In this document: one piece after another, positions 4,003 to 16,542 of the stretch | Layout: each line of letters opens with the position of its first letter | How positions within the stretch are numbered: the stretch's first letter is position 1 | Assembly: GCA_041665025.1 (NCBI GenBank) | Contig: JBAYJP010000002.1 | Coordinates: 128,691-192,690 of the forward strand | Source of the DNA: Candidatus Magasanikiibacteriota bacterium | GTDB taxonomy: Bacteria > Patescibacteriota > Patescibacteriia > Magasanikbacterales > UBA922 | Length of the DNA stretch: 64,000 nucleotides | Reading direction: 5' to 3' | Position numbers and translations under genes: made by a program | Notes under the pieces: model-generated | What the model was told of the DNA's origin: nothing | Database searches by the model: none | The model's input: the letters and a program-made list of their open reading frames with translations, nothing else

Positions 4003-4077
4003 GCGGGCATCATATAATGGTTATTATCCCAGTTTTCCAAACTGGTGACAGGAGTTCGATTCTCCTTGCCCGCTCCA
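4003..4077 (+). tRNA. tRNA-Gly (anticodon UCC) with encoded CCA
   Basis: Manual cloverleaf. Acceptor GCGGGCA/TGCCCGC. D-arm with GG. Anticodon stem CCAGT/ACTGG with loop TTTCCAA (U33, UCC, A37). T-arm AGGAG-TTCGATT-CTCCT. Discriminator T, then CCA. Confidence 0.75.
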
Positions 4078-5658
4078 AGTTGAAAAAACGGTCTGAAAAT
4101 GACTGTTTTTTCTTTTATCTTCGCACAAAACACTTGGTTCTACTCGGGCAATTTTTAAGATTTCGTTTTCAAGCCCGTTCTTCAAAGTGAGGTACGGTTT
4201 TTGTAGTTCAATACTGAGTTTTCCATCTCTAAAATAAAAGTTCTGACCAATGCATTTCAAAATATGCGTTTTGGTTTCAAAGTCCCCATGTTCAAACCAG
4301 TGCTTTGCATATGTAGCAAAATTAAATGTCTTTTCAGTGAGATCAAGCCAGTCGTCTACTCGCGTCTCGGTTTTCCTAATCTCAAGCTCTATTCGCCCCT
4401 TTTCTGACACCAAAGAACTTTTTTGTCCTCTAAATTCTTCTTCCGTTATCATCTCCTTTTTTGCATTTTCAGGAGAGATATACAAATTTATTAAATTATC
4501 TATGCGCCTAAGACAGGAATTATAATTATCTTGAAGGTTGCTGACGATAATGTTTCGGTCATACTCCTCTACAAGATTTTGGTCTCGCAAGACTTGAATT
4601 GCCCAGTGTAAAAATTCCTCTGGGATAGTAATACTGTCTAAGTAATCAGTTACTTGTTTTAACAATGCACTATGTTCTATAGATTTTTGATGACACTCAA
4701 TATCCCTGCGATTATGTGAGCAGTGGTGGTAAAGATACTGTTTAATTTTTCCGGTTGTTTTATTTTTCTTATGTTTTTCTTCGGCGACGATCATTCCTCC
4801 ACACTCTGCGCATTTAATCACTCCGCTAAATGGTAACCTCTTATTTTTTGGCCGCGGTTTACCCTTTTTACCCAAAATGGTCTGTGCCAAATCAAATTCT
4901 TCTTTTGTTATCATTGGTTTGTGTTTACCTTGATAAATCGTACTCTTGTACATAAATTCGCCACAATAAAACATATTATTAAGCATTTTGTAGGTTCCAT
5001 TAACACTCATCTTTTTGCCTTCTGATGTTCTTAAACCCCATTCTTCTGTGGCTATTCTTTTAATCTGCATTACTGAGTAGTTATCCGTTAGAAGTAAATC
5101 CCACATTTTTCTAACTAAAGAGAAACGCTCTTGATCTACGAATACAACTTTATTCCCTTTTTCTCCGAACTTGTCATTCAAGTAACCAATCGGGGCTTTA
5201 CCTGGCCGCCAACCCTTTTCTACCTTAGACTTCATACCGCGTGTAACATCTTTACTTAGGTCAATAATAAACTGATTTGCCATGCCAAGCTCTACTGCCA
5301 TCATAAGTACATTATCTGTCGGCAAATACTCACGCCCCGGGGTTATAATTGATTTCATCACCTCTTGCTGAAGTAACCACTGTATTTCCCCTCCATCCAC
5401 TGGATTTCGCGACAAACGATTGAGCTTCCAACAGATGATCGCGTCGGCTTGTCCACTCTTCAGCATGGCCATCATTTCGTTATACATCGGTCTTCCGGGC
5501 TGTTTGGCTGATTTTGACTCGCCGAATGTCTTAACAACATTTAGCCCCCTACGGGTAACTTCATATGCCAATTCGCGTCGTTGGTCTTCAATTGATTGAA
5601 CCTGACGATCTTCTGCATCGGTAGATTTTCTCAAATACATGATATATCGTAATTTCAT
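4024..5658 (-). CDS. Large serine recombinase (resolvase-type N-terminal catalytic domain, recombinase domain, zinc ribbon, coiled coil). Its 3' end overlaps the tRNA-Gly 3' half.
   Basis: N-terminal MYLRKSTDAEDRQ is the serine-recombinase catalytic Ser motif. Cys cluster CAECGG..HHCSH. 544 aa, typical size of large serine integrases. The ORF reads through tRNA positions 4024-4077. Confidence 0.85.
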   Translation of the reverse strand: MKLRYIMYLRKSTDAEDRQVQSIEDQRRELAYEVTRRGLNVVKTFGESKSAKQPGRPMYNEMMAMLKSGQADAIICWKLNRLSRNPVDGGEIQWLLQQEVMKSIITPGREYLPTDNVLMMAVELGMANQFIIDLSKDVTRGMKSKVEKGWRPGKAPIGYLNDKFGEKGNKVVFVDQERFSLVRKMWDLLLTDNYSVMQIKRIATEEWGLRTSEGKKMSVNGTYKMLNNMFYCGEFMYKSTIYQGKHKPMITKEEFDLAQTILGKKGKPRPKNKRLPFSGVIKCAECGGMIVAEEKHKKNKTTGKIKQYLYHHCSHNRRDIECHQKSIEHSALLKQVTDYLDSITIPEEFLHWAIQVLRDQNLVEEYDRNIIVSNLQDNYNSCLRRIDNLINLYISPENAKKEMITEEEFRGQKSSLVSEKGRIELEIRKTETRVDDWLDLTEKTFNFATYAKHWFEHGDFETKTHILKCIGQNFYFRDGKLSIELQKPYLTLKNGLENEILKIARVEPSVLCEDKRKNSHFQTVFSTWSGQGESNSCHQFGKLG

Positions 5659-5679
5659 ATAATTTTAATTAGGTAAATT

Positions 5680-5797
5680 AAAAGGGACGGCTAAGGTTGA
5701 CCCAAATCCGCTACCCCGAAGGATTGCCTCATTGGCATAGCCGCCCCTTTTAAGGGACGAGACAAAAAAACGGGGTTTTGATGGATTTTGGGTCAAC
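5680..5797. repeat. Nested inverted repeats immediately upstream of the recombinase start (candidate recombinase binding / att or res-like site)
   Basis: Inner IR: AAAAGGGACGGCTA (5680-5693) versus ATAGCCGCCCCTTTT (5737-5751). Outer IR: GGTTGACCCAAATCC (5695-5709) versus GGATTTTGGGTCAAC (5783-5797). Confidence 0.5.
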
Positions 5798-5825
5798 GAT
5801 TACATTATACCATAAGCAAATATTT

Positions 5826-6194
5826 TTAGAATGACTTAAAATTTTTGTTAAGGGTCTCCTCAATTTTTGAGACTCTTTCTCCTAAATCAGAGACTTCCAT
5901 GGCCTTAATCAAATGTCCAGATAGGTATCCCAAGCAATTTGCGATCTTTAATTCTATCAAGCCGCTGCGCACTTCATTGATTGTGGTTGCAAGTAGTACA
6001 ACCACATCTTTTGGTTTGTTGATAATAACTGGTGGGAGCCTGCTCCGGTTCTTCTTGGACATTCTTCCACCCCTAAGGATCGCCTCTCTTCTTTCTTTTT
6101 TTGTCTCTGGATTATGGATAAAGCAGAACCTGCTATTTTTCATTGCGCTGGCAAGACATTGTTTATTGTTAAATTTAATATAATTACATCTCAT
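5826..6194 (-). CDS. Hypothetical small protein (Cys/His-containing N-terminus), cargo of the putative element
   Basis: 122-aa ORF. Start overlaps the upstream ORF by 4 nt (operon-like). No recognisable family. Confidence 0.45.
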   Translation of the reverse strand: MRCNYIKFNNKQCLASAMKNSRFCFIHNPETKKERREAILRGGRMSKKNRSRLPPVIINKPKDVVVLLATTINEVRSGLIELKIANCLGYLSGHLIKAMEVSDLGERVSKIEETLNKNFKSF

Positions 6195-6544
6195 ACTTTT
6201 TTGAAAAATCTATAGGCCTTTACCATCTGTTCATATTCTTCTAATAATTTTTCTTTTATATCTTGCCTTTCTTCATGTTTTATTTCCCAGTCTCTTTGTT
6301 TAGCCAATAAACCAAGCATTTCATCATTCGTCTTTTCAGTCTGTCTAAGCATTTCAAATATCGTTGGATTATCTAAAAATAACTCTCTATATTCATTCGC
6401 TTCATCTTCATTTTTTATCCTCTGATAAATTGAGCGGCGCAATCGTAAAGATAACTCCACAAGTTGTGCTTCGGATAGGTTCCTAAATGGCCTATTATTC
6501 ACGGGAATGCTTTTTTCTATCTTTTTAATTCTTGATTCCATCAT
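6191..6544 (-). CDS. Hypothetical coiled-coil protein
   Basis: 117-aa ORF rich in charged residues, co-directional with and overlapping the next gene. Confidence 0.45.
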   Translation of the reverse strand: MMESRIKKIEKSIPVNNRPFRNLSEAQLVELSLRLRRSIYQRIKNEDEANEYRELFLDNPTIFEMLRQTEKTNDEMLGLLAKQRDWEIKHEERQDIKEKLLEEYEQMVKAYRFFKKV

Positions 6545-7081
6545 AAGCGTAGCTTATGGGGTATACCCCCACATATTTCTACTAAGTATTTATCGGATAT
6601 GGACAAGAGGGATTAAAAGCCCACTATTATACAGTAGCTTCTATTTCGGCCGTATTTCTCCGTTGTTTCTCGGTACGGCCTATGGCTCACTCTCCGTGGG
6701 GTCAGTACTCTGCCCGTTGGGTAACTCTATATCGCCAAGCCAATTCAATTTAACGATACAGACGGTCTTGGTTTATCGGCGTAAGGAGTTCCGATTGCTG
6801 TCGGAACCGCATCAGGATTACCAAGTCCTATGATTTGATGGCGTCCACGGGGTGGCTCATAGGTTCGCCCACCGTCCCCCGCAGTATTTAATCCCTCACC
6901 CAATTTCCGATATTATTCTTGAAACTGAGCATCTTCTTTTTTGATTGGTTTATAAATTAACCCAACAAGCTGGACGAGCTTTATTGCTTGTTCTCGTGCG
7001 TCTTCAAGACCGATCTCTTTACCAAAGAGGTTCTTGTAGAGTGTTTGAAATTTTGCAACTTGCTCATCCGATACCATACAA

Positions 7082-7363
7082 CTATGATTTACTGCTATAA
7101 ATTCTATTTTTTAGCATTTTGATATTATCAAAGTAAGCTCTTGCTCCCACATTCATTTTGTCACAAAAATAAGCACCAAACGCCTCCTCAACCTCAACTC
7201 CTTCCCTAAACCCAAAGAGCACCCTACGCGAGTTGGTCTTATCTAAAGATACGAGCTCCAAACCCACAGTTACAAGAGCTGCAGCACAACCCAGATCAGA
7301 TGTTGTGAAAATTTTTGGTTGTTCTTCTAACAATTGTTTATTTAATTCTAATCCAGTTTTCAT
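7082..7363 (-). CDS. Hypothetical protein
   Basis: 93-aa ORF, no recognised motif. Confidence 0.4.
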   Translation of the reverse strand: MKTGLELNKQLLEEQPKIFTTSDLGCAAALVTVGLELVSLDKTNSRRVLFGFREGVEVEEAFGAYFCDKMNVGARAYFDNIKMLKNRIYSSKS

Positions 7364-7510
7364 ATTTGCTATTGAATGTATTGCTTGTATTATGATGGGA
7401 AATCATTCTTTTTTTGATAGGTTTTTACTCTACCTCAAAAAATAAAAAAATGGCTTATATTAGCCATTTGATTTGACAAAATTAACACCCAGTTAAGGGA
7501 TAGTGTTACC

Positions 7511-8338
7511 TTAGTGGAAGCTTATGTCATATTCTTCTTTGTTTAGAGCATAGCCCCCAGTAGGCAGACTGATAATCAATTTTCTTTTTTTGTCTTGAGA
7601 TTTTTCTATTTGCATTTTTTTCAAAAAAATTTTATTAATATTTGATATCTCCTTTCCTATAAATTCAGCGTTCTTTTTTCTTAATAGTAATTCTGAAAGT
7701 TCTTTGCCGCTTAATTTTTTATTGCTAAGGAAGTCAATTATTTTTCGTCGGTTTCCTTTTATAGAATACTGTAATTTTTTTCCTCGTTCTATTCTCCAAA
7801 TTCCTGAATCAGAAGTAATATGGATAGTAAGTTTATTATCATCAAAACTATCATTGATCAAATCAACCTTTTTCTTTTCTTCTTTAAGATAATCAACAAA
7901 TTTCTTATTGCTGTGTTTCTTATTTTCACGCCGTTTTTTAAGTAGATTATTAATATAGTCAAAAATTTCTTTATCGTCCTCTGACAGACTAAATTTTGGC
8001 GACCCTACAAGGATATACTCCTTTTCAATTTGTGCAAGACATTTTTCAACTAAAATACGATCATGTTCCCAAACAATGTTCTTCTCTTGCAAGTCACTAA
8101 TAAGATCGTCTGGCAGCAGGAGCAGTAAATCGCGTTTAACACTATCAAATTCAGGGAAATCTAACATTGATTGGAGGTAACTTTTAATGAGCATGTAAAT
8201 ACCATTTAGTTCTCTATCCCCAATTGCCAAATAGCCTGTTAATACCAAATCTGTCATGTCTAATAATTTGTCCAAATATAGCTGGCTTAGGAAGAGACGC
8301 TGCCCAAAGTTTGTATAGGTTTTTCTTTTCATATTCAT
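7511..8338 (-). CDS. Hypothetical protein (Lys-rich, possible C-terminal winged-helix)
   Basis: 275-aa ORF with no overlapping alternative. Followed by a hairpin/T-run at 7455-7480. Confidence 0.5.
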   Translation of the reverse strand: MNMKRKTYTNFGQRLFLSQLYLDKLLDMTDLVLTGYLAIGDRELNGIYMLIKSYLQSMLDFPEFDSVKRDLLLLLPDDLISDLQEKNIVWEHDRILVEKCLAQIEKEYILVGSPKFSLSEDDKEIFDYINNLLKKRRENKKHSNKKFVDYLKEEKKKVDLINDSFDDNKLTIHITSDSGIWRIERGKKLQYSIKGNRRKIIDFLSNKKLSGKELSELLLRKKNAEFIGKEISNINKIFLKKMQIEKSQDKKRKLIISLPTGGYALNKEEYDISFH

Positions 8339-8516
8339 AATAATTTTACTTATATATTACGCCTTTACATTGTAAGTTACAATGTTTTAATCATTATAAC
8401 AATTGTCTAATTACAACCACTGAAAAATTACGCTTGGAACTTGATTTCTGGCCCAAAATGATATAGTATTAAGTGGACAACTTAAGACCTAAACCCGTCT
8501 CGGGCATGGTCAAAAA

Positions 8517-8635
8517 CACTGCACAAACATAGAGATGGCTATTCCGTCTCTGGCATTGTTTGTGCAGTCAGTAGCCGAAAGGTTACTGGGTTCCGAAAGG
8601 GACCGCCAGTGTACGGGTAGCCTTTTTTGTTTTCC
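8517..8635 (+). promoter_or_regulatory. Structured leader with an intrinsic-terminator-like T-run directly upstream of a secreted-protein gene (candidate attenuator / cis-regulatory RNA)
   Basis: Perfect 12-bp inverted repeat ACTGCACAAACA...TGTTTGTGCAGT (8517-8568) enclosing a second stem. Two CCGAAAGG motifs. GGGTAGCC followed by TTTTTTGTTTT (8621-8635). The gene starts at 8652/8661. Confidence 0.4.
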
Positions 8636-8651
8636 GAATATCAATAACACA

Positions 8652-9350
8652 ATGTGTAATATGGATAGATATAAAATTAAAAAAGGAATTTTCAATAAAT
8701 CCACAATAACAATTGTCGTTACTTTTTTGATTTTAGGGTCTGTATATTCTGGTGTTGTGCTGTATAGAAAATCTCTGGCTAACAAAACACAAGCGGAATT
8801 ATTGCACGTCACTGGAGCACAAGAAGAACCCACAGAAATTACAGGAGAGAAATTCTATCAAATTACCCTAAGTTCATCACCATATAGAAGATCAGATGAT
8901 GACCGTCTGGGCGATATAATGCTGGAGGTCAATTTGAAGAATTTGAACATTACTCCTTTTATTACCAATTTAGGTACTGACAAATGCATTCTTTCTGACA
9001 AGTTAGGCAGACAATACCAAGCGGACCTCATAAGCGAAGTCCCACTTAAAAAAGCACTTCTTACGGGGGAGGAAGTATCTGTAAAAATTGACGGGGCATT
9101 ATACATAAATGTTCTTCAAGAAGGAGAAACATCTTGCCAAAAAGAAGGGTCTGGAGTGATTGACTGGGTTCATAACAATGATTGGGTCAAAAACGCTGTT
9201 AAATGCGTCTACAGCCCTTCTGGAGAGTGTACATGTGAGGACATTGGTCCACTCTCAGTGAATGAATGCACTTTCCGCGTTACTTCGGATGGAAAACAGG
9301 CGTCTAACGGCTGGGGTCAATATCCATTAGTTGTACCTATCCAGAATTAA
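8652..9350 (+). CDS. Secreted/membrane-anchored Cys-rich hypothetical protein. The ORF-track start at 8535 lies inside the leader hairpin and is probably not used.
   Basis: MCNMDRYKIKK followed by a TM segment STITIVVTFLILGSVYSGVVLY. Multiple Cys in the C-terminal third. Confidence 0.55.
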   Translation: MCNMDRYKIKKGIFNKSTITIVVTFLILGSVYSGVVLYRKSLANKTQAELLHVTGAQEEPTEITGEKFYQITLSSSPYRRSDDDRLGDIMLEVNLKNLNITPFITNLGTDKCILSDKLGRQYQADLISEVPLKKALLTGEEVSVKIDGALYINVLQEGETSCQKEGSGVIDWVHNNDWVKNAVKCVYSPSGECTCEDIGPLSVNECTFRVTSDGKQASNGWGQYPLVVPIQN

Positions 9351-9361
9351 ACCTGAAATAT

Positions 9362-9790
9362 ATGAACAAGAAAATTATTATTTTTAGCATAATTATCATT
9401 ATCGTTACCATTCTTGCTGGTGGTATCTACAAGGTCGTATCATTAAACCAAAAAATCTCTTATTACAAAAACAAGGAAGCCGAGGATTACTTCAAAAAGA
9501 AATTAGAGTGCGGTGAAATGGCCGCCCCAATTAAAGAGGAACTTCAAAAATATAACTCGGGCCCTCTTTCTCTATTTGTAGAAAATTTTGAGATGGTTTT
9601 TTATAGCCCTAAAGAAAATAGCTGTATTTATTCCATAGAGAGACTTTACACGGGGGACCAACCCGAACGGGAATACGTTGTCTATAATGCCCTCACAAAA
9701 CACAAGATTACTTCTTTTCAATTTCCATCCCAGTGGGAAAATTACAAATCATTTTTATTAGAGTATTCAAACGGAGAGATTAGATTGTAA
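9362..9790 (+). CDS. Membrane-anchored hypothetical protein
   Basis: N-terminal hydrophobic helix IIIFSIIIIIVTILAGGIY. 142 aa. Confidence 0.5.
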   Translation: MNKKIIIFSIIIIIVTILAGGIYKVVSLNQKISYYKNKEAEDYFKKKLECGEMAAPIKEELQKYNSGPLSLFVENFEMVFYSPKENSCIYSIERLYTGDQPEREYVVYNALTKHKITSFQFPSQWENYKSFLLEYSNGEIRL

Positions 9791-9791
9791 A

Positions 9792-10211
9792 TTGATTACT
9801 GTGGCCATCATATCAACATTTTATAGCATCTTGATACCCATTGAAAACCTAAGAAGGGTTTTATCAAAAGAACAACTACAAGAAATTCTCCCTAAAAGAA
9901 CTTGCTATGGAGGAATTTGGTTTGATGATTATTTGTATTGTGAGATATCTATGGGACCAGCGGATAATGAGGCTATTGTTGAGTTTTGGAAAGAAAAGGG
10001 GTTAGTGCCATTTGAGACCAGAGACGGCAAACAATACTGGAACGAATTGTGTTTGATCCCATCTCCGGATAATCAGCCAACTTTGCCTTGTGATTGGGTA
10101 GAAATTAGATATGAAGATAAGCATGGATACTGCTATAATTTAAGGGGCAAACCACAAGGTGAAATTGTGAGAGGACCGAAACCAGTAAAAAATTTCTTTG
10201 ATCTCAACTAA
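9792..10211 (+). CDS. Hypothetical protein
   Basis: 139-aa ORF starting 2 nt after the previous stop (operon). Confidence 0.5.
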   Translation: MITVAIISTFYSILIPIENLRRVLSKEQLQEILPKRTCYGGIWFDDYLYCEISMGPADNEAIVEFWKEKGLVPFETRDGKQYWNELCLIPSPDNQPTLPCDWVEIRYEDKHGYCYNLRGKPQGEIVRGPKPVKNFFDLN

Positions 10212-10245
10212 TTATTTAACAATCCTTATAATAAAGCGTATAAAC

Positions 10246-10278
10246 AAAAAAGCGGGCGAAGCCCGCGTTCTTGTTTTT
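10246..10278 (+). terminator. Rho-independent terminator
   Basis: GCGGGC-GAA-GCCCGC stem followed by GTTCTTGTTTTT. Confidence 0.7.
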
Positions 10279-10712
10279 AAGTTTTTAGTTCTCTAATCGT
10301 TTACAACGTTCACATAGTCTACGTCCATCAGTACCTTGTCTAAGATTTTCTTTTTCTATATTATTACCCTCTGTACATTTATTAGAATTATGATAAACTT
10401 TTATCCATGTTAACTTTGAATGATAAGGTTGTACTTTCATATAGTAATAGTAATAGTAATAGTAATATTAAAATTAATTATTTATAAGTTGTTAATTTTT
10501 TGAAGACCTGCTATAATTAATTTGTTAGGGTAATTATAACTTGCAGGAAGACGCGATTAATTAACGATTGTTGCGTCTTTTTTATTGGGTATTTTGATTG
10601 ACATATATCTACTGTTAGATAATAATATTTTAACCTATGCGGTAAGTCTTGTCAATAGCTACTTATACCCACCGCTTGACTTTCTTATTACTATCAGATA
10701 AAATCAAAATAT

Positions 10713-11048
10713 ATGGATAACAATACCAAACAAATAATTGGAGGCAACATCCGCGCAAAACGGGAGGCCTTGGGTTTATCCCAAGAAGAACTCGCCCAAA
10801 AAGTAGGAAAGCAAACTGCTACTTATATAGCTTTTATTGAAAAAGGTGAAAGAAATATAACCACAGTAGATTTAATGGCGATAGCTAAACAGCTTGGCAC
10901 TACTGTTGCGGTTCTTATTGGTGAAGATAAAAAGGCAAAAACACCTTCTGTCGTTGATGTTTTAAGGTCTGCAAAAGAACTCAGTAAAGCTGACCGCGAA
11001 AAAATTGAAGCTATTTATAACTTTGCTAAAAACAAAAAAGATGAGTAA
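10713..11048 (+). CDS. XRE-family helix-turn-helix transcriptional regulator
   Basis: GNIRAKREALGLSQEELAQKVG..TYIAFIEKGERN is the Cro/C1 HTH signature. Confidence 0.85.
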   Translation: MDNNTKQIIGGNIRAKREALGLSQEELAQKVGKQTATYIAFIEKGERNITTVDLMAIAKQLGTTVAVLIGEDKKAKTPSVVDVLRSAKELSKADREKIEAIYNFAKNKKDE

Positions 11049-11556
11049 TGACTACGAAAGTGTATCTGATGATTTGTTGACCCCCAACTTAAAGGGAGCC
11101 AGACTTAGAGCTAAGAATATTTGGAATGAATTTTGTGGAGCAAAAATACCGGTAAAACTTAATGACATAATCCAAAAAATGGGGATTGATATTCGGGGAG
11201 AGGATCTAAATTCTGCCGATGCCATCACAAGAATGGATAGCAACGGCGTTTGCTGTATGGTTTATGACCAAAATAGTTCCGTTGTGAGGAAAAGATTCAC
11301 AATAGCACACGAAATAGGACACTTAGCAATGGAACACACATCATCGTGGGGAGGGTGTAATCAGTTTTCAAAAAAATCTCAGGAAAAGGAGGCTGATGCT
11401 TTTGCTGGTGAACTGTTAGTGCCATCTGAAGACTTGAAGGAATTTACTAAACAAAAACGCACAATTCAAGAAATAATGAGTAGATACTGGATAAGTAATC
11501 CTGCGGCCTTTGTGGCAGTGCAAAATAATCGTTTATTAGATAGGATTAAAATATAA
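11041..11556 (+). CDS. ImmA/IrrE-family zinc metallopeptidase (partner of the XRE regulator)
   Basis: HEIGHLAMEH (HEXXH). Start overlaps the XRE stop by 8 nt. The XRE+ImmA pairing is typical of phage/ICE immunity modules. Confidence 0.8.
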   Translation: MSNDYESVSDDLLTPNLKGARLRAKNIWNEFCGAKIPVKLNDIIQKMGIDIRGEDLNSADAITRMDSNGVCCMVYDQNSSVVRKRFTIAHEIGHLAMEHTSSWGGCNQFSKKSQEKEADAFAGELLVPSEDLKEFTKQKRTIQEIMSRYWISNPAAFVAVQNNRLLDRIKI

Positions 11557-11689
11557 TTTTACTGTGTATTTCCCACATAAAAAATTTGGCAGTTGGTTAT
11601 ATCATGTTTAATCTATTAGGTATTTGGAAAAGACAAAATAATACTTTTTAACTTTACTGCTGTGATACCAGCGTCGTATCTTTTATCAA

Positions 11690-11770
11690 AATAGTTCTGA
11701 CGTCTTTCACTAATTAAGCTCTCGTTAAAACTTCGCTTAACAAGCGTAGTTTTTTGTTTACCCTTACGTG
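11690..11770 (+). repeat. Copy 1 of a repeated sRNA-3'/terminator module
   Basis: GTTCTGACGTCTTTCACTAATTAAGCTCTCGTTAAAACTTCGCTTAACAAGCGTAGTTTTTTGTTTACC matches 14660-14735 and 16446-16490. Confidence 0.5.
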
Positions 11771-11795
11771 TGAGTAGAACAAGGCAGTAAAACTA

Positions 11796-11824
11796 TTGAC
11801 AAAAAGGAGATTTTATGCTATACT
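11796..11824 (+). promoter_or_regulatory. Consensus sigma70-type promoter reading into the GC-rich cassette
   Basis: TTGACA-N17-TATACT in AT-rich DNA. A structured leader (inverted repeats) follows, then the GGAGAGG RBS of the first GC-rich ORF. Confidence 0.6.
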
Positions 11825-11989
11825 TTTCGGTTCGATTATAATTCGAACTGTGCTCTTTTTAGCAAAAAATTAGATTAAAAAGACTTGGGTCACAAGAGAA
11901 CTAAATTATTTTAGTTTTGTTTTGACCCAGGTCTCGTTTGCTTGGTTGCGACGAGACTCCGAGACGGATAACACGGAGAGGTGATACCG

Positions 11990-13045
11990 ATGGACCGCAC
12001 CGAACTGACCACCCTCGCCACCCGCCTGCTCAACCCCATCGCCGGCCTGCACAAGCAGGTGATCGCCAGCTTCGACACCCCCCAGGTGGGCCCGTACCAC
12101 CAGGAGGGGAACTACCTGGTCGACCACCTCATCCGAATGTTCAACGAGTGGAGACGCCTCGCCGGCAGACCCGAGATGTCCGAGGTCCTCGAGGTCGCCC
12201 TCAACCAGGTCGAGTACCACATCGAAAACGGTGAGGACCTCATCGCCCTCTACATCGTCCTCCACGACGCGTGGAAGGGTGACGAGGTGATGCAGGTGAA
12301 GCTCGACGGTCTGCCCGAGATGACCATGACGCGCAAGTCCTGGGCCAAGTGGGTCAAGACCATGGGCTCGCAGGACAAGGACCCCGTCGACATCGCCAAG
12401 GCCAAGGGCATGCTGCAGGTCTCCTACGAAGACCACGCGGAAGTCGCTGCCGTACAGCTTGAGTGCTTCACCGAAACCCTCAAGCTGCCGGAGTGGTTCG
12501 TGCGCGTAGTTCTGCTGCACATGGTGGCCATCCAGCTCGCTCAGGTGAACGTCCCGCTCTACGAGCGGTCGTTCGCCAACCTGCCCGAGGAGGCCTGGCA
12601 GTTCCTGACGGTCGTGACCTGGCTCGACGCTCAGGGTGCGGTCGGGGAAGACGGCAACTGCAACATCTCCGGCTGGAACAACCTCATCTCGTCCAAGTGG
12701 GCCGCCGAGAGCTACAGGCGCGTCGAGCGCGCCATCAGGAAGGCGGACCGACTGGACGGGCAGAAGATGGAGCGCGCTCTGTCCGATCTGCGCAATTCGC
12801 ACGACATCTTCCACAACGAGACGCCGGATGAGTCCATCGACCGCCTGAAGCGCGAGTGCGCGCTGCCCAAGGTCACGGAGGCTGACGTCCGCAACGCGCT
12901 GGCCAACATCGAGGGCCTGGGCGAAGCGCTCATCGCGACCATCGCGGCCGAGATGGCCACGGACGGCAAGCTGAGCCCGGACACGGGCAGGGCGCTCGGC
13001 CGGTTCAACAAGCCGGTCCGCGACGCGCTCAAGAGCCTCGGCTGA
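11990..13045 (+). CDS. HD-motif (LHDxxK) putative metal-dependent phosphohydrolase encoded in very GC-rich foreign DNA. ATG at 11990 is preferred to the GTG at 11981.
   Basis: GPYHQEG...YIVLHDAWKGDE resembles HD-domain His / His-Asp motifs. Strong codon bias. RBS GGAGAGG 7 nt upstream. Confidence 0.6.
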   Translation: MDRTELTTLATRLLNPIAGLHKQVIASFDTPQVGPYHQEGNYLVDHLIRMFNEWRRLAGRPEMSEVLEVALNQVEYHIENGEDLIALYIVLHDAWKGDEVMQVKLDGLPEMTMTRKSWAKWVKTMGSQDKDPVDIAKAKGMLQVSYEDHAEVAAVQLECFTETLKLPEWFVRVVLLHMVAIQLAQVNVPLYERSFANLPEEAWQFLTVVTWLDAQGAVGEDGNCNISGWNNLISSKWAAESYRRVERAIRKADRLDGQKMERALSDLRNSHDIFHNETPDESIDRLKRECALPKVTEADVRNALANIEGLGEALIATIAAEMATDGKLSPDTGRALGRFNKPVRDALKSLG

Positions 13046-13187
13046 CGACCACAACCCCGAACCCCGGGCGAAAGGGGTGACAGTTCGGAAAGACGGACAA
13101 CTCTCGTGTGTCGCGTACGTTCGTACGTAGTGCGATAGTCGAGGAAATACGCGCGGGGAGCTGGATGCAAAAGCGTTCAGCACCCCG

Positions 13188-13255
13188 TGGATTTTCCGGT
13201 GAGACCGGAACTGATGAGTCCTTTAACGATAGAATACGACAGGACGAAATCCAAA
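13188..13255 (+). ncRNA. Type III hammerhead ribozyme (HH1)
   Basis: GGAU-U|UUCCGG-UGAGA-CCGGAA-CUGAUGA-GUCC-(20 nt loop)-GGAC-GAAA-UCC. Full conserved core. Predicted cleavage after 13194. Confidence 0.8.
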
Positions 13256-13407
13256 AACTGTTCTTTACAATTCGACATGGTTCTTAAATAAAAAAACGGA
13301 CGTGGGTCAACACATGGCCAGGAGTTCTCCTGGACAGATGGACCCCACGTCCGGAGGTTTTGGTCAACCACCGGATGAACTTCGAACGCACACACGGAGG
13401 TGCACTC

Positions 13408-14373
13408 ATGACCCAGTTCACGAATGCGGTGACGCACAGCGGCGACATGCACCCGGACGACGTCATGGCGGGTGGCTTCCTCAAGGAGACCAACCCCGGC
13501 ATCCGCTTCGTCCGCACCCGCGACAAGACCGTGCTCGAGGCGGCGATGTCCGACGACGACACCGTCGTCTACGACGTCGGCTTCGTGTACGACGAGTCGC
13601 GGAACTGCTACGACCACCACCAGCGGCAGAACGCCCCCAACCCCCGCCCGAACGGCGTGCCGTTCTCGAGCTTCGGGCTCCTGTGGCAGCGCTTCGGCCT
13701 GTCCTACTGCGAGCGCCTCGTGGCCAAGTACGGCAAGGACATCGACCCCGCCCAACTCCACGAGCTCATCGACCACGAGCTGGTCCAGGGCATCGACGTC
13801 ATCGACACCGGCGCGGTGGACAACCCCCGCTTCCAGCCGAAGGTCGGCGAGGTGTCCGTCGAGGTCAAGACCTTCGCGCTGGCCCTGTTCGAGCTCGCCC
13901 CCCAGCCGCTCCTGTTCGAGATCCCGCCTTACGACGAGGCCTACAACCAGGCCACCGACATCGCCGCGGTCTTCCTGAACCGCTTCGCCGAGGCCTGCCT
14001 GGCCAAGCTCTGCGGGCGTCAGCTTCTCGTGACCGGCCGCCGGGTCGAGGAGTGCGTCGTCGTGTCGCCCAAGGTCATCCCGGACTGGAGCGACGTCGTC
14101 AGCGCGGAGTTCCCCGAGACCCTCTACTACCTCGAGCCGGACACCAACGACCAGACGGGCAAGGCCTACATGCTGTGGCAGGTGCCCGTCGAGCCGCGGG
14201 GCTTCGTCGGCCGCAAGTCGCTCCCGGAGAGCTGGGCCGGCAAGCGCGGCACGGACCTCGTGGCCGTGACCGGCATCGAGGGCTCGGGCTTCTGCCACGT
14301 CGGGTGCTTCGTGGGCGGCGGCGAGACCCTCGAGGCGACGCTCGCGATGGCGAAGGCGGCCATCGCGGCGTAG
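13408..14373 (+). CDS. MYG1/UPF0160-family metal-dependent hydrolase homologue (GC-rich foreign gene)
   Basis: N-terminal THSGDMHPDDVMAGGFL and YDHHQ motifs recalled as the MYG1 signature. Start taken at MTQFTNAV (13408). Confidence 0.7.
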   Translation: MTQFTNAVTHSGDMHPDDVMAGGFLKETNPGIRFVRTRDKTVLEAAMSDDDTVVYDVGFVYDESRNCYDHHQRQNAPNPRPNGVPFSSFGLLWQRFGLSYCERLVAKYGKDIDPAQLHELIDHELVQGIDVIDTGAVDNPRFQPKVGEVSVEVKTFALALFELAPQPLLFEIPPYDEAYNQATDIAAVFLNRFAEACLAKLCGRQLLVTGRRVEECVVVSPKVIPDWSDVVSAEFPETLYYLEPDTNDQTGKAYMLWQVPVEPRGFVGRKSLPESWAGKRGTDLVAVTGIEGSGFCHVGCFVGGGETLEATLAMAKAAIAA

Positions 14374-14477
14374 CGCGGATCAAATCCGCGCAGAGGACCA
14401 TGTCGGCTACTGATTCAGTCGGCGGCGCAAGCTGCTGAAGGAGTCGTAGACGTCGGGGTGTGTATTTCACGCACCCC

Positions 14478-14538
14478 GGTCCTCTACTGATAATGTCAGT
14501 ACTGATGAGCCCATTTGTTTATGCAGGGCGAAAGGACA
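14478..14538 (+). ncRNA. Type III hammerhead ribozyme (HH2)
   Basis: GGUCCU-C|UACUGA-UAAUG-UCAGUA-CUGAUGA-GCCC-(13 nt loop)-GGGC-GAAA-GGAC. Full conserved core. Predicted cleavage after 14484. Confidence 0.8.
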
Positions 14539-14542
14539 AATT

Positions 14543-14575
14543 AAAAACCACTTATAGTAATATGAGTGGTTTTTA
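14543..14575 (+). terminator. Bidirectional intrinsic terminator (start of repeated module copy 2)
   Basis: AAAAACCACT-TATAGTAATAT-GAGTGGTTTTT. Confidence 0.65.
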
Positions 14576-14611
14576 ATTAGAAATAAGATTTATTATTGTG
14601 AATTTGCAGAG

Positions 14612-14640
14612 TTGACCAAAACTAAATTATGCGTTATACT
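14612..14640 (+). promoter_or_regulatory. Consensus promoter inside the repeated module
   Basis: TTGACC-N17-TATACT. The homologous copy at 16197-16225 reads TTGGCC-N17-TATATT. Confidence 0.5.
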
Positions 14641-14646
14641 CATCGG

Positions 14647-14724
14647 CAGTTTCAATACTTCGGTTCTAACCTCCTTTACTAAGGAGCTCTCAATAAAACT
14701 TCGCTCAAACAGCGTAGTTTTTTG
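14647..14724 (+). ncRNA. Candidate small RNA (about 80 nt) ending in an intrinsic terminator. A paralogous copy lies at about 16232-16316 and a 3' fragment at 11690-11750.
   Basis: Promoter about 7 nt upstream. Internal hairpin CCTCC-TTTACTAA-GGAG. Terminator CTTCGCT-CAAAC-AGCGTAG plus TTTTTT. Homologous 5' part (TCGGCAGTTT..GTTCTAA) in copy 2. Confidence 0.35.
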
Positions 14725-14759
14725 TTTACCCGCAAGTGTGAGTAGAACCGAGCTGCAGA

Positions 14760-15548
14760 CTATTTCAAACTATTCCATAGCATTTCCCATACAAACCGTT
14801 GGTTGTCTGCATTTGCTTGGTCTTCAATAATTACTAAGATCATACTGTCCCACGACACGGTCATGACGCGATCACCATAAATGATGGTATGACTTTTGAA
14901 AAATTTCCCATCTGGTAAAAATTTTACATCGCGCAATTCTTCTTTTGCCCGCTTAGCTTCCTGTAAGCCAAATTTAGATTTTTCTACAATTATCCTGGCT
15001 TTTATCCCACGTCTAATTCTTTCCTTAGTAAATTTCTTGTATTCTTCAGGAAAAATCGTTAGAAGTTCGGTTGATGTCCCATAGACCAAATTTTCTTTTT
15101 GGGTCATGTCGTGCCTTATCCTGTCCAAATAGGCCTGCCATACATTTTCTTTACCCTCATAATACAAGACCTTTGGTTTTTTATTTGTTTTATTTTGAAT
15201 GGCACGAAGCTCCGGTAAAAGATTAATAAAAGAAATTTCTTTATCATGTAACGATTGATAAATTTTGTCCGGATCAACTGCTTCCAGCAGTCTTTTTTTA
15301 CCACTCGGCGTTTGTTGAACAAGACCTTTGCTAATAAGATCATCCAAAACATCGTATGTAGACACACGGTGTAGGGATGCTACCTTAGCAATATTTTGTA
15401 CAGGCGCAGGCCCTAATTGTAGACAAGCCAAATAAACCTTAGCTTCTTTTATGCTTAGCCCAAATTCTTGAAGTTGCGTTGGAGTAATCATAGATGTTGT
15501 AGAGAAAATACTACATTTTAGTATATAACAATACCAACAATTAATCAA
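14760..15548 (-). CDS. TrmB-like winged-helix transcriptional regulator (paralogue 1 of 3)
   Basis: N-terminus LQEFGLSIKEAKVYLACLQLGPAPVQNIAKVASLHRVSTYDVLDDLISKGLV is the TrmB HTH signature. Confidence 0.7.
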   Translation of the reverse strand: MINCWYCYILKCSIFSTTSMITPTQLQEFGLSIKEAKVYLACLQLGPAPVQNIAKVASLHRVSTYDVLDDLISKGLVQQTPSGKKRLLEAVDPDKIYQSLHDKEISFINLLPELRAIQNKTNKKPKVLYYEGKENVWQAYLDRIRHDMTQKENLVYGTSTELLTIFPEEYKKFTKERIRRGIKARIIVEKSKFGLQEAKRAKEELRDVKFLPDGKFFKSHTIIYGDRVMTVSWDSMILVIIEDQANADNQRFVWEMLWNSLK

Positions 15549-15669
15549 TTTAGCTAAAATTAAATAAAAAATAGCTATTTTATAACAGTCTATACGTAGA
15601 ACTTTATTGACAGAATAAAAAAATATTATAAGGTTAGTTAAGATCCATCAACCGGTATGGAGGGACCAC

Positions 15670-16020
15670 ATGGAGTGGCACAATTGGGGTAAACGCCCGA
15701 ACTCTCAAACCATGAGGCATATGGTAGAGTGGGAGGAGTGCCCTTATTGCGGGCATAGAGAAAAAGATTTTCTTAACTTCATTGTTGGTTTCTCAAATAG
15801 TGAAGATATTTTTACCAAAAGCACTTGGGGAGAAAATATCTTGTGGGGCGCAGAAGCCTTGGAGTGCCCAGTATGCTTTGAAAATTCTTGGAGACATACA
15901 AAATATCGGAACCCGGACACTTTTTCCTGCCTTGTGGGTGAGGGTAAAATAGTGCTTCGCGTGCCAGGGGCAGACGAGGCCTTTCACACCATGCTCGAGA
16001 TGCACAAACAGAAAGAATAG
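15670..16020 (+). CDS. Zinc-ribbon hypothetical protein (two CxxC pairs)
   Basis: CPYCGH ... CPVCFEN. Moderately GC-enriched. Followed by GC hairpins at 16040-16110. Confidence 0.5.
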   Translation: MEWHNWGKRPNSQTMRHMVEWEECPYCGHREKDFLNFIVGFSNSEDIFTKSTWGENILWGAEALECPVCFENSWRHTKYRNPDTFSCLVGEGKIVLRVPGADEAFHTMLEMHKQKE

Positions 16021-16126
16021 TCCCGTGTATCTCGTCCGACTGGCTGGGTGCGACCACAAGTCAGCCCAGCCTCCTTGAGTGGTAATATTTATTACCTCTT
16101 GAGGAGGACTGACTTGTGTAAAAATA

Positions 16127-16260
16127 TAAAACCACTTATAGCAATATGAGTGGTTTTTGATTAAAGAGAATTATTTACTGTTGTGAATTTACCGAGTTGG
16201 CCAAAACTAAATTATGCGTTATATTCGTCGGCAGTTTGAGCACCTCAGTTCTAATGTTAA
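16127..16260 (+). repeat. Copy 3 of the terminator-promoter-sRNA module (about 85% identical to 14543-14675)
   Basis: AAAACCACTTATAGCAATATGAGTGGTTTTT ... TTGGCC-N17-TATATT ... TCGGCAGTTTGAGCACCTCAGTTCTAA. Confidence 0.55.
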
Positions 16261-16426
16261 GTACTAATGAGCTCAAATAAAATCACTCCAATTTGTTGGG
16301 GTGATTTTATTTTGTACTGTAAAGGGGAACCGAACGGGAAAGGGAGAAAACGGTAGTTTTCTCTTGCCGAGGAAAGTTCACGAAAACCCGAAGGTTTTCG
16401 TGGGAGGAGCCTAGGGCGACGAATGA

Positions 16427-16449
16427 GATTTCTCCTTGCCCGCTCACCA
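16427..16449 (+). repeat. Degenerate direct repeat of the tRNA-Gly 3' end (candidate distal att site of the integrated element)
   Basis: GATTTCTCCTTGCCCGCTCACCA versus tRNA 4058-4077 GATTCTCCTTGCCCGCTCCA. A 15-mer is identical and the rest differs by two 1-nt indels. Confidence 0.5.
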
Positions 16450-16542
16450 TAAAACTTCGCTCAAACAGCGTAGTTTTTGTTTACCGGTAAGGAGAAAACA
16501 ATCGCGGTCGAAGCGACTTGTGATTGTTTAAAAGAGGACTAA

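What the first reader, a model, noticed from the sequence alone, without database searches (positions are those of the whole stretch)
11690..16500. Family of repeated terminator-promoter-small-RNA modules at the boundaries of the foreign cassettes
There are three copies.

- **Copy 1 (11690-11770):** 3' part only.
- **Copy 2 (14543-14745):** complete.
- **Copy 3 (16127-16316, plus 16446-16490):** complete, with an extra structured insert.

A complete unit has four parts:
1. A bidirectional terminator, AAAACCACTTATAG(T/C)AATATGAGTGGTTTTT.
2. About 40 nt further, a near-consensus promoter, TTG(A/G)CC-N17-TATA(C/T)T.
3. A transcribed segment of about 80 nt with conserved 5' part TCGGCAGTTT...GTTCTAA.
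4. A conserved 3' terminator, AAAACTTCGCTCAAACAGCGTAGTTTTTT.

Copies 2 and 3 are about 85% identical over about 125 nt. The modules sit exactly at the edges of the GC-rich cassette and of the TrmB/Zn-ribbon segment. They resemble recombination-site or cassette-boundary elements, or a family of small regulatory RNAs. Promoter plus terminator with no ORF strongly suggests expressed sRNAs.
Basis: seen in the sequence. Interest (0 to 1): 0.6.

Follow-up and report, generated by a model that had tools for sequence, protein, structure and literature searches.

The report
Integration-site scars downstream of tRNA-Gly
The repeated "terminator-promoter-small-RNA" modules are most likely the junction sites left when mobile DNA inserted repeatedly, one piece after another, at the end of a glycine tRNA gene using a serine recombinase; this is a known kind of genome architecture, and evidence for a small-RNA gene family is weak.

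Summary
The repeats are real: T2 occurs three times, T1 and the promoter-like segment twice, and there are no other copies in the window.

They are not free-standing sRNA genes. T2 plus its tail is the sequence that directly follows tRNA-Gly(TCC) in two other Patescibacteria-type genomes. Copy 3's "insert" ends in a 16-nt copy of the window's own tRNA-Gly 3' end.

That tRNA-Gly (4003-4077) abuts a large serine recombinase (LSR, 4024-5658). All six LSR loci inspected, including the window, sit the same way on a tRNA-Gly.

The conserved heart of the "sRNA" is a 27-nt block, B (GTTCTAAC-N6-TACTAAGGAGCTC). B marks the far end of LSR elements in L021 and L023. In metagenomes it separates small recombinase-less gene cassettes downstream of tRNA-Gly.

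Best reading: the modules are hybrid attachment sites, made of an element-borne arm (B) joined to a tRNA-Gly-type terminator. Serial integration stacked a 7.6-kb LSR element, the GC-rich cassette and the TrmB/Zn-ribbon cassette.

The promoter-like segment exists only in two window copies, and nothing comparative supports an sRNA.

Side findings:
- Two type III hammerhead-like ribozymes follow the two GC-rich genes.
- LOOT RNA is carried by this LSR element family.

The parts
4003..4077 (+). tRNA-Gly(TCC), the integration target. Its 3' end (..GCCCGCTC|CA) is the left half of attL.
   Evidence: ARAGORN and Rfam; sequence.
4078..4110 (+). Term_w, the terminator hairpin supplied by the LSR element (the P' arm). 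It now terminates the tRNA.
   Evidence: The same motif, CA(A/T)..GAAAAA.C.G..CTGTTTTTT, follows tRNA-Gly next to LSR homologues in L021, L023 and L024. It follows block B in L009 and L010.
4024..5658 (-). Large serine recombinase gene. Its 3' end overlaps the tRNA 3' end, convergently.
   Evidence: Pfam Resolvase + Recombinase + Zn_ribbon_recom. More than 3600 homologues.
8486..8604 (+). LOOT RNA, carried inside the LSR element.
   Evidence: Rfam RF03000, 81 bits. Also found inside the related LSR elements L021, L023 and L024.
10713..11556 (+). XRE-type HTH regulator plus ImmA/M78 metalloprotease pair. These are the last genes of the LSR element.
   Evidence: Pfam annotations on the contig; PHROGs.
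11694..11721 (+). B1, a degenerate block B (GTTCTGACGTCTTTCACTAATTAAGCTC). Proposed element-borne arm of the LSR element's attR.
   Evidence: Alignment. B1 joined to Term_w reconstructs the contiguous B-Term_w of L009 and L010 at 73-75% identity.
11727..11780 (+). T2a terminator plus tail (copy 1). This is tRNA-Gly-downstream-type sequence.
   Evidence: 52/60 identical to the sequence after tRNA-Gly in L007.
11796..11824 (+). Promoter-like site TTGACA-17-TATACT heading the GC-rich cassette.
   Evidence: 11/12 match.
11990..13045 (+). GC-rich ORF1 (351 aa, no family match). Cargo of cassette A.
13187..13254 (+). Type III hammerhead-like ribozyme after ORF1.
   Evidence: RF00008, 22.3 bits, below the gathering score, with a full CUGAUGA..GAAA core; motif scan.
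13408..14373 (+). GC-rich ORF2, MYG1-family protein. Cargo of cassette A.
   Evidence: Pfam PF03690, E = 1e-47.
14477..14539 (+). Type III hammerhead-like ribozyme after ORF2, directly abutting T1.
   Evidence: RF00008, 27.4 bits, E = 0.012; motif scan.
14544..14574 (+). T1, a bidirectional terminator-like hairpin at the right end of cassette A.
14612..14640 (+). Promoter-like site P (copy 2).
   Evidence: 10/12 match.
14663..14689 (+). B2, block B (GTTCTAACCTCCTTTACTAAGGAGCTC).
   Evidence: Identical 27-mer in L004/L007. Family of 17 instances.
14695..14748 (+). T2b terminator plus tail (copy 2).
14760..16020 (.). Cargo of cassette B: TrmB-family regulator (14760-15491, minus strand) and a Zn-ribbon protein (15670-16020, plus strand).
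16128..16225 (+). T1' and promoter-like site P' (copy 3).
16248..16312 (+). B3 (GTTCTAATGTTAAGTACTAATGAGCTC) followed by terminator T3. The junction resembles the B-T3 junction of L007.
   Evidence: (inverted repeat I10).
16313..16429 (+). X, a structured 50% GC segment of unknown nature.
   Evidence: Fold z = -2.8. No credible Rfam match (only a chance-level snoRNA hit, E = 0.78).
16430..16499 (+). 16-nt copy of the tRNA-Gly 3' end (16430-16445), then ACCA, T2c (16451-16478) and a tail. Read as the displaced native 3' end and terminator of tRNA-Gly, the outermost att remnant.
   Evidence: Exact 16-mer match to 4060-4075. Same arrangement as the uninterrupted tRNA-Gly-T2 in L003 and L007.

Best explanation
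The modules are hybrid attachment sites (attR-type junctions) left by site-specific integration at the 3' end of tRNA-Gly. The responsible elements belong to a Patescibacteria-wide family that uses a large serine recombinase (LSR).

**What each integration does**
1. The recombinase joins the tRNA's 3' end (…GCTC|) to the incoming element's own terminator. The tRNA stays intact and terminated.
2. The element's other arm, the conserved 27-nt block B (GTTCTAAC-N6-TACTAAGGAGCTC|), is left joined to whatever terminator previously followed the tRNA.

**How repetition gives the window's order**
- tRNA-Gly | Term_w
- 7.6-kb LSR element, then B1 | T2a-tail
- GC-rich cassette A, then T1-P-B2 | T2b-tail
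- TrmB/Zn-ribbon cassette B, then T1-P-B3 | T3
- X, then the tRNA 3' fragment | T2c, which is the native terminator

So T2 is a tRNA-Gly terminator, B is a recombinase-recognition arm, and T1 is the terminator at the end of each cargo.

**Shown**
- The repeats themselves.
- The tRNA-Gly-T2 arrangement in other genomes.
- The LSR and its constant association with tRNA-Gly.
- B at the distal ends of LSR elements and between cassettes.

**Inferred**
- The crossover position near GCTC.
- The order of integration events.
- That the LSR, rather than some other recombinase, made all the junctions.
- How the recombinase-less cassettes A and B entered: mobilisation in trans or in cis, decay of larger elements, or homologous exchange between modules.
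For: 1. The T2 pattern hits only two places among 185,579 species genomes. Both lie immediately after a tRNA-Gly(TCC) gene (L003, L004), and in L004 the tail GTTTACCC..GTGTGAGCAGAAC matches as well.
2. Window 16430-16445 is identical to the last 16 nt of the tRNA body (4060-4075) and is followed by T2c. This matches the uninterrupted site in L003 and L007.
3. The ORF at 4024-5658 is an LSR. It converges on and overlaps tRNA-Gly.
4. The same arrangement holds in 6 of 6 distinct LSR loci, with LSRs 51-100% identical to the window's. The post-tRNA arm is conserved in four of them: the window, L021, L023 and L024.
5. Block B was found, independently of the pattern search, at the far end of the LSR elements in L021 (9.5 kb from the tRNA) and L023 (10.9 kb). 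In L021 a second B, 1.1 kb further on, is followed by a T2-like terminator and tail.
6. Five distinct metagenome or genome loci have B 0.6-2.5 kb downstream of a tRNA-Gly on the same strand (L005, L004/L007, L008, L009, L021). L009 shows the array tRNA - cassette - B - cassette - B.
7. B followed directly by Term_w, the predicted attP configuration, exists contiguously in L009 and L010. It aligns at 73-75% to the window's B1 joined to Term_w.
8. tRNA and B share only GCTC(CA) at the junction. Short identity like this is typical of serine-integrase sites (the typicality is my own knowledge).
9. There is a published precedent with the same architecture: the Dehalococcoides ssrA islands (PMC3146451).
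Against: - No free circular form, empty site in a sister strain, or junction read was observed. Integration is therefore inferred, not seen.
- Canonical serine integrases recombine only attP with attB. Repeated insertion at a tRNA whose right arm has been replaced, and entry of cassettes whose own site is 'B + T2-like', do not follow the textbook rule. The rule can be satisfied only if T2-like arms act as attB arms.
- Cassettes A and B carry no recombinase.
- The 4 nt between GCTC and TAAAAC differ among the T2 copies (TCGT, TCAA, ACCA), so the exact crossover is unresolved.
- The conserved tail GTTTACC..GAAC lies outside a normal ~40-bp attB and is unexplained.
- B's similarity to the tRNA body is not statistically significant.
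- B was not found with my pattern in three LSR loci (L024, L026, L027).
Confidence: 0.75

Rival explanations
1. The modules are genes for a family of small regulatory RNAs of about 85 nt. Each has its own sigma-70 promoter and intrinsic terminator, and they were duplicated next to acquired genes.
For: - Promoter-like sites score 10/12 and 9/12, with a 23-nt perfectly conserved stretch, upstream of copies 2 and 3.
- There is no ORF of note.
- Terminators follow the segment.
- Fold z-scores are -4.2 and -3.6.
Against: - The low z-scores may largely reflect the terminator hairpins, which are the longest helices in both predicted folds.
- Copy 1 lacks the promoter segment.
- None of the 15 other B occurrences (13 loci) has the promoter or the 5' part. 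B there abuts the stop codon or terminator of varied genes.
- The 5' hairpin predicted for copy 2 does not appear in the predicted fold of copy 3.
- In B, the right arm of the only hairpin is invariant while the left arm varies freely, from 2 to 6 pairs, so there is no covariation.
- There is no credible Rfam match to the modules.
- T2 is demonstrably the tRNA-Gly terminator elsewhere.
Confidence: 0.12
2. The modules are attC-like sites of an integron-like cassette platform. Single-gene cassettes would be captured one by one at a fixed site next to tRNA-Gly, with the module folding as the recombination substrate.
For: - Arrays of one- or two-gene, recombinase-less cassettes are separated by ~100-nt modules downstream of a fixed anchor (window; L009; L021).
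- Modules are bounded by short inverted sequences, GTTCTA…TAGAAC.
- In some loci the module is followed by a cargo promoter.
Against: - No integron-type tyrosine integrase was seen among the neighbours examined. The recombinase actually linked to B and to tRNA-Gly is a serine recombinase.
- The module ends do not match the R''/R' (RYYYAAC/GTTRRRY) arrangement.
- In the larger family, conservation extends about 20 nt upstream of GTTCTAAC (CCTTCTCTTCCATCACAATA). The inverted 6-mers are therefore not the module boundaries.
- No 'empty' tail-B junction was found.
Confidence: 0.1
3. The modules are passive REP-like or terminator repeats. They would have spread by duplication or homologous recombination, with no role in mobility.
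For: - Much of each module's length is terminator hairpin.
- Copies 2 and 3 could be a recent segmental duplication, at 87% identity.
Against: - The repeats are tied specifically to tRNA-Gly and to the ends of LSR elements in unrelated samples.
- Block B is conserved although it lies outside the terminator hairpins.
- A 16-nt fragment of the tRNA 3' end sits at the outermost copy.
Confidence: 0.05

Closest known systems
Dehalococcoides ssrA-specific genomic islands (ssrA-GIs; McMurdie et al. 2011, PMC3146451)
   Same: - Tandem islands lie downstream of a small stable-RNA gene, bounded by repeats of its 3' end.
- A ~540-aa CcrB-like serine recombinase sits on the reverse strand right next to attL.
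- An extra conserved motif lies upstream of each repeat and does not align with the RNA gene. This is analogous to block B.
- Many islands lack an integration module and are interpreted as cis-mobilizable elements gained by accretion.
   Different: - The target here is tRNA-Gly (TCC or GCC), not tmRNA.
- The shared tRNA/B identity is only about 4-6 nt, against a 20-bp repeat.
- No second small recombinase (DsiA/CcrA-like) was noticed.
- The cassettes are much smaller, 0.45-2.9 kb.
- The host phylum is Patescibacteria.
SCCmec and composite SCC islands at rlmH (orfX) in staphylococci (my own knowledge, not checked here)
   Same: - Large serine recombinases insert elements at the 3' end of a conserved gene.
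- Successive insertions give tandem arrays separated by repeated integration-site sequences.
- The arrays include recombinase-less pseudo-SCC cassettes.
   Different: - The target is a protein-coding gene.
- There are two recombinases, or CcrC.
- The elements are tens of kb.
- There are no terminator-bearing modules.
Accretion of ICEs with cis-mobilizable elements (CIMEs), e.g. ICESt1/ICESt3 of Streptococcus thermophilus (my own knowledge; the concept is cited in PMC3146451)
   Same: - Units bounded by att sites but lacking recombination genes lie in tandem with a recombinase-bearing element at the same locus.
   Different: - Those systems use tyrosine integrases with long identical cores.
- They are conjugative, and no conjugation genes were seen here.
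Integron cassette arrays (attI, attC)
   Same: - Arrays of promoter-poor, mostly single-gene cassettes are separated by ~60-140-nt imperfectly symmetric sites next to a fixed anchor.
   Different: - No IntI-type tyrosine recombinase was seen.
- The module lacks the attC box arrangement.
- The anchor is a tRNA gene, and the associated recombinase is a serine enzyme.

Membership tests
Serine-integrase attachment sites (attL/attR of an LSR element) | A large serine recombinase gene lies at one end of the element, next to an att site. | tested here: met
   ORF 4024-5658 has Resolvase + Recombinase + Zn_ribbon_recom domains. It overlaps the tRNA-Gly 3' end.
Serine-integrase attachment sites (attL/attR of an LSR element) | Related recombinases sit at the same kind of target in other genomes. 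| tested here: met
   6 of 6 distinct LSR loci (51-100% identity) converge on a tRNA-Gly 3' end. The element-side arm is conserved in four of them.
Serine-integrase attachment sites (attL/attR of an LSR element) | Joining the outer halves of attL and attR reconstructs an uninterrupted attB that is seen elsewhere. | tested here: met
   The tRNA 3' end joined to T2a, T2b or T2c is 77-81 of 95-97 positions identical to the uninterrupted tRNA-Gly-T2 of L007.
Serine-integrase attachment sites (attL/attR of an LSR element) | Joining the inner halves reconstructs attP, as seen on the free element. | tested here: inconclusive
   B1 + Term_w aligns at 73-75% to the contiguous B-Term_w in L009 and L010. 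Those are short chromosomal contigs, not shown to be circular elements. No hit in viral contigs.
Serine-integrase attachment sites (attL/attR of an LSR element) | Only a short identity lies at the crossover, with no long direct repeat. | tested here: met
   tRNA and B share only GCTC(CA). The 16-nt tRNA fragment at 16430 belongs to the outermost junction only.
Serine-integrase attachment sites (attL/attR of an LSR element) | Recombination between the sites is catalysed by the recombinase. | not testable with these tools
   Needs an in vitro or in vivo assay, or junction-spanning reads.
Tandem accretion with cis-mobilizable (recombinase-less) units | Several att-type repeats lie in direct orientation downstream of one target gene, with units between them that lack a recombinase. 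| tested here: met
   Window: B1, B2, B3 and the tRNA fragment all lie on the + strand. Cassettes A and B carry no recombinase. L009, L021, L007 and L008 are similar.
Small regulatory RNA gene family | The whole promoter-to-terminator unit is conserved in other genomes. | tested here: not met
   The promoter and 5' part are absent from copy 1 and from all 15 other B occurrences in 13 loci. No hit in viral contigs.
Small regulatory RNA gene family | A conserved secondary structure is supported by covariation. | tested here: not met
   B folds weakly and inconsistently. One hairpin arm is invariant while the other varies. The 5' hairpin of copy 2 is absent from the predicted fold of copy 3.
Small regulatory RNA gene family | A discrete transcript is present. 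| not testable with these tools
   No expression data are available.
Integron attC site | R''/R' core sites (RYYYAAC … GTTRRRY) lie at the two ends, paired through L''/L'. | tested here: not met
   By inspection the ends read GTTCTAAC … TAGAAC, which is the opposite arrangement. Conservation also extends beyond them.
Integron attC site | An IntI-type tyrosine recombinase lies next to the array. | not tested
   Only ten neighbouring ORFs of the window were scanned and none is a tyrosine recombinase. The whole contig was not surveyed.
Hammerhead ribozyme type III (side finding, 13187-13254 and 14477-14539) | The catalytic core CUGANGA…GAAA is present, with closed stems I and II, an open stem III and an NUH cleavage site. 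| tested here: met
   The Rfam alignment shows the full core and all three stems. These are the only two core + stem II matches on either strand of the window.
Hammerhead ribozyme type III (side finding, 13187-13254 and 14477-14539) | The score reaches the Rfam gathering threshold. | tested here: not met
   22.3 and 27.4 bits against a threshold of 48.5. Long stem II loops and a short stem III are the likely cause, though I did not test this.

The most novel reading that the evidence does not exclude
Downstream of tRNA-Gly, Patescibacteria maintain a serine-recombinase-driven gene-capture platform that works like an integron.

- Single-gene, recombinase-less cassettes each carry a B-terminator module.
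- The cassettes are inserted and shuffled in trans by resident LSR elements, which also carry LOOT RNA.
- This lets reduced genomes sample foreign genes.
- Those genes include 65% GC cross-phylum acquisitions that arrive with their own hammerhead ribozymes for transcript processing.
Probability: 0.2. Interest if true: 0.7.

Novelty: new member of a known kind. Interest (0 to 1): 0.35.

Why it matters
- **It explains a puzzling repeat.** The repeat becomes the footprint of a specific, widespread mobile-element family in Patescibacteria (CPR). Mobile DNA and gene flow in this group are, to my knowledge, poorly charted.
- **It gives usable sites.** There is a concrete attB (the tRNA-Gly 3' end plus its terminator) and a 27-nt element arm. 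These can delimit islands in CPR genomes and can serve to test these LSRs as integration tools.
- **It places LOOT RNA.** This orphan RNA motif sits on a mobile element, which narrows its possible roles.
- **It flags an unusual acquisition.** Hammerhead-punctuated, high-GC genes lie inside a 37% GC genome.
- **For the scan itself:** "promoter + terminator without an ORF" next to foreign DNA should first be checked against tRNA ends.

Tried and rejected
1. **Is B a decayed 3' half of tRNA-Gly?** MAFFT suggests collinear blocks. Local alignment against shuffles is not significant (p = 0.18-0.97), so I do not claim it.
2. **Does copy 1 have a diverged T1-promoter?** Not significant (p = 0.79 and 0.06).
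3. **Is there an "empty" palindromic site TAGAAC|GTTCTA into which cassettes insert?** No locus shows tail and B adjacent, and conservation extends upstream of GTTCTAAC.
4. **Is attP dyad-symmetric around GCTC?** By inspection of the B-Term_w sequences, the outer motifs GTTCTAAC and GAAAGAAC are symmetric about a point 4-5 nt to the left. I left the crossover unresolved. The 5-nt offset of GTTC between B and the tRNA T-loop recalls the attP/attB geometry of serine integrases, but this is only a lead from memory.
5. **Viral contig scans** for T2, the promoter core, B and the LSR gave nothing useful.
6. **The donor of the GC-rich genes** was not found: phage and plasmid searches, viral loci, and only two ~34% identical homologues of ORF1.
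7. **Chimeric assembly of the GC-rich segment** is unlikely. The identical ORF1 is also on a 278-kb NCBI Magasanikbacteria contig, and AT-rich linkers of host-like composition separate the two genes.
8. **Rfam at permissive thresholds** gives no credible match to the modules or to X.

Full report
**1. Observation**

The repeats exist as described.
- T2 (AAAACTTCGCTCAAACAGCGTAGTTTTT, up to 3 mismatches) occurs at 11727, 14695 and 16451. T1 occurs at 14544 and 16128. Shuffled sequence gave no matches to either.
- Copies 2 and 3 share 87% identity over 110 nt. The shared stretch covers T1, a promoter-like TTGRCC-17-TATAYT and the start of the putative transcript.
- No other copy exists in the 64-kb window.

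Four details differ from the first description.
- Conservation continues past T2 into a tail, GTTTACCC-N5-GTGTGAGTAGAAC.
- Copy 1 retains a degenerate version of the central block, but its upstream region is not related to T1-promoter.
- Copy 3's putative transcript ends in a different terminator, at 16275-16312.
- The last 16 nt of the copy 3 "insert" (16430-16445) are identical to the 3' end of the window's tRNA-Gly(TCC).

**2. Source of the window**

The window is part of a 440-kb metagenomic contig. An identical ORF1 is annotated in an NCBI Candidatus Magasanikbacteria MAG. Base composition is about 37% GC, except for 11.9-14.5 kb at 62-65%.

**3. The key lead: T2 is a tRNA-Gly terminator**

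A scan of one genome per species found the T2 pattern in only two places. In both, T2 immediately follows a tRNA-Gly(TCC) gene. One of them, a Patescibacteria MAG (L004, which is the same locus as L007), also has the same tail. T2 plus tail is therefore the native terminator region of tRNA-Gly in this lineage.

In the window, the arrangement "tRNA 3' end - ACCA - T2" survives only as the 16-nt fragment at 16430. The intact tRNA-Gly lies 12.4 kb upstream, at 4003-4077, and is followed by a different terminator, Term_w.

**4. The recombinase**

The ORF converging on and overlapping that tRNA (4024-5658) is a large serine recombinase (LSR). It has thousands of homologues, mostly unnamed; the few that carry names are from Patescibacteria groups.

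I inspected five further distinct homologue loci, with LSRs 51-68% identical.
- Every one converges on the 3' end of a tRNA-Gly (TCC or GCC).
- In L021, L023 and L024 the sequence just after the tRNA is conserved with the window's Term_w: GCTC|CA(A/T)..GAAAAA.C.G..CTGTTTTTT.

Term_w therefore belongs to the element, not to the host.

**5. Block B**

The part of the "sRNA" conserved in all three window copies is a 27-nt block, GTTCTAAC-N6-TACTAAGGAGCTC.

A metagenome scan found it in 11 loci. It always lies at the 3' side of varied genes and is followed by a terminator hairpin of variable sequence. In about half of these loci a GTTT(T)ACC tail follows the terminator.
- Wherever a tRNA-Gly lies within the upstream flank (four of these loci: L005, L007, L008, L009), it sits 0.6-2.5 kb upstream of B on the same strand.
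- L009 shows an array: tRNA-Gly - terminator - cassette - B - terminator - cassette - B.

Independently of that pattern search, B turned up at the far ends of LSR elements.
- In L021 it lies 9.5 kb from the tRNA. A 1.1-kb cassette follows, then a second B joined to a T2-like terminator and tail.
- In L023 it lies 10.9 kb from the tRNA.

B followed directly by Term_w, the configuration expected for the element's unintegrated site, is contiguous in L009 and L010. It aligns at 73-75% with the window's B1 joined to Term_w. The tRNA 3' end joined to any of the three T2 copies matches the uninterrupted site of L007 at about 80-85%.

**6. Model**

attP (B|Term_x) recombines with attB (tRNA-Gly|Term_y) near the shared GCTC. 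The products are attL (tRNA|Term_x) and attR (B|Term_y). Repeated events at the regenerated tRNA stack units, with the newest next to the tRNA.

Reading the window this way gives:
- the LSR element, 4078-11721, carrying the LSR, small ORFs, LOOT RNA and an XRE/ImmA pair;
- B1|T2a;
- cassette A: a promoter-like site at 11796, two GC-rich ORFs, T1 and P;
- B2|T2b;
- cassette B: TrmB, a Zn-ribbon protein, T1 and P;
- B3|T3;
- X;
- the tRNA fragment|T2c, followed by core genes.

- T1 is the cargo terminator.
- B is the element arm.
- T2 is the tRNA-type terminator.
- The modules sit at cassette edges because they are the junctions.

**7. What is not shown**
- No circular form, junction read or empty site was observed.
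- The exact crossover is unresolved. The 4 nt after GCTC differ among copies.
- Textbook serine integrases do not recombine attP with hybrid sites. Serial insertion therefore requires that T2-like arms behave as attB arms, or that the enzyme is promiscuous, as is reported for Ccr recombinases (my own knowledge).
- How the recombinase-less cassettes A and B entered is open. Options are mobilisation in trans or in cis, decay of larger elements, or homologous exchange.
- The conserved tail and the structured X segment (z = -2.8) are unexplained.

**8. The sRNA reading**

In its favour are two promoter-like sites, the terminators, and fold z-scores of -4.2 and -3.6.

Against it:
- The z-scores may largely reflect the terminator hairpins, which are the longest helices in both predicted folds.
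- The promoter and 5' part are confined to two window copies that look like a shared cassette backbone.
- They are absent from copy 1 and from every other B occurrence.
- The predicted 5' hairpin of copy 2 does not appear in the predicted fold of copy 3.
- B has two invariant sequence blocks around a fixed-length variable spacer, with no covariation. That pattern fits protein recognition of DNA better than RNA structure.

A local transcript is possible, but it is not what defines the repeat.

**9. Comparison with known systems**

The closest described system is the Dehalococcoides ssrA genomic islands (PMC3146451).
- Islands lie in tandem downstream of tmRNA, bounded by repeats of its 3' end.
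- A CcrB-like LSR sits on the reverse strand next to attL.
- An extra conserved motif lies beside each repeat.
- Many islands lack an integrase and are interpreted as cis-mobilizable units gained by accretion.

Composite SCCmec islands are a second analogue (my own knowledge). Differences here are the target (tRNA-Gly), the very short shared core, the small size of the cassettes and the phylum. I file this as a new member of a known kind.

**10. Side findings**
- Each GC-rich ORF is followed by a type III hammerhead-like ribozyme with a complete core, at 13187-13254 and 14477-14539. Both score below the Rfam threshold. They are the only such motifs in the window.
- Each GC-rich ORF is also preceded by a long hairpin and the same ACACGGAGG ribosome-binding context. 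The donor was not found.
- LOOT RNA lies inside the LSR element in the window and in three related elements. It therefore looks like a component of this mobile-element family.

Noticed in passing
window 13187-13254 and 14477-14539 (+): Two type III hammerhead-like ribozymes with complete CUGAUGA…GAAA cores. One follows each 62-65% GC ORF, and each is preceded by CACCCCG. They score 22-27 bits, below the Rfam gathering score, and are the only such motifs in the window. They would cut the transcript into single-gene units.
   Followed up: partly
window 11880-14540: Two 62-65% GC genes (one unknown 351-aa protein and a MYG1-family protein) sit in a 37% GC genome. They share a UTR layout: a long GGGTCA…TGACCC hairpin, an ACACGGAGG RBS, the ORF, a structured 3' UTR and a hammerhead. 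The donor lineage was not found. The identical ORF1 is in an NCBI Magasanikbacteria MAG.
   Followed up: partly
window 8486-8604; L021 7370-7513; L023 5958-6085; L024 4615-4739: LOOT RNA (RF03000), to my knowledge an orphan motif, lies inside the tRNA-Gly-specific LSR element in the window and in three related elements. It appears to be cargo or a functional part of this mobile-element family.
   Followed up: partly
window 16313-16429: Segment X is 50% GC and well folded (z = -2.8). Its closing helix uses the 16-nt tRNA-Gly 3' fragment. It has no credible Rfam match and no counterpart in the other loci. Its nature is unknown.
   Followed up: partly
window 11756-11780 and 14724-14748; L003, L005, L007, L009, L014, L015: A tail motif, GTTT(T)ACC(C)-N10-14-GAAC, follows the terminators that come after tRNA-Gly or block B in several of the unrelated loci. 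It lies outside a normal serine-integrase site, and its function is unknown.
   Followed up: no
window 4024-4077 (also L021, L023, L024, L026, L027): The LSR reading frame runs through the element's terminator and into the tRNA gene. The last ~18 residues of the protein would therefore differ between the integrated form and the predicted excised form (545 against 562 codons in the window).
   Followed up: partly
window 11828-11850: A terminator-like hairpin lies within a few bases of the strong promoter-like site at 11796-11824 that heads the GC-rich cassette. It may be an attenuator.
   Followed up: no
L018, L002, L017 (Logan SRR6484324): Independent short contigs from another read set are 100% identical to the window but break at 11900, 13212, 13304 and 14507. 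These are the edges of the GC-rich ORF units, inside the hairpins and hammerhead cores. The cause could be coverage or population variation and was not resolved.
   Followed up: no
L007 11211-11439: A group I intron match (90.6 bits) lies between tRNA-Ala and tRNA-Pro in a related Patescibacteria locus. It is unrelated to the finding.
   Followed up: no
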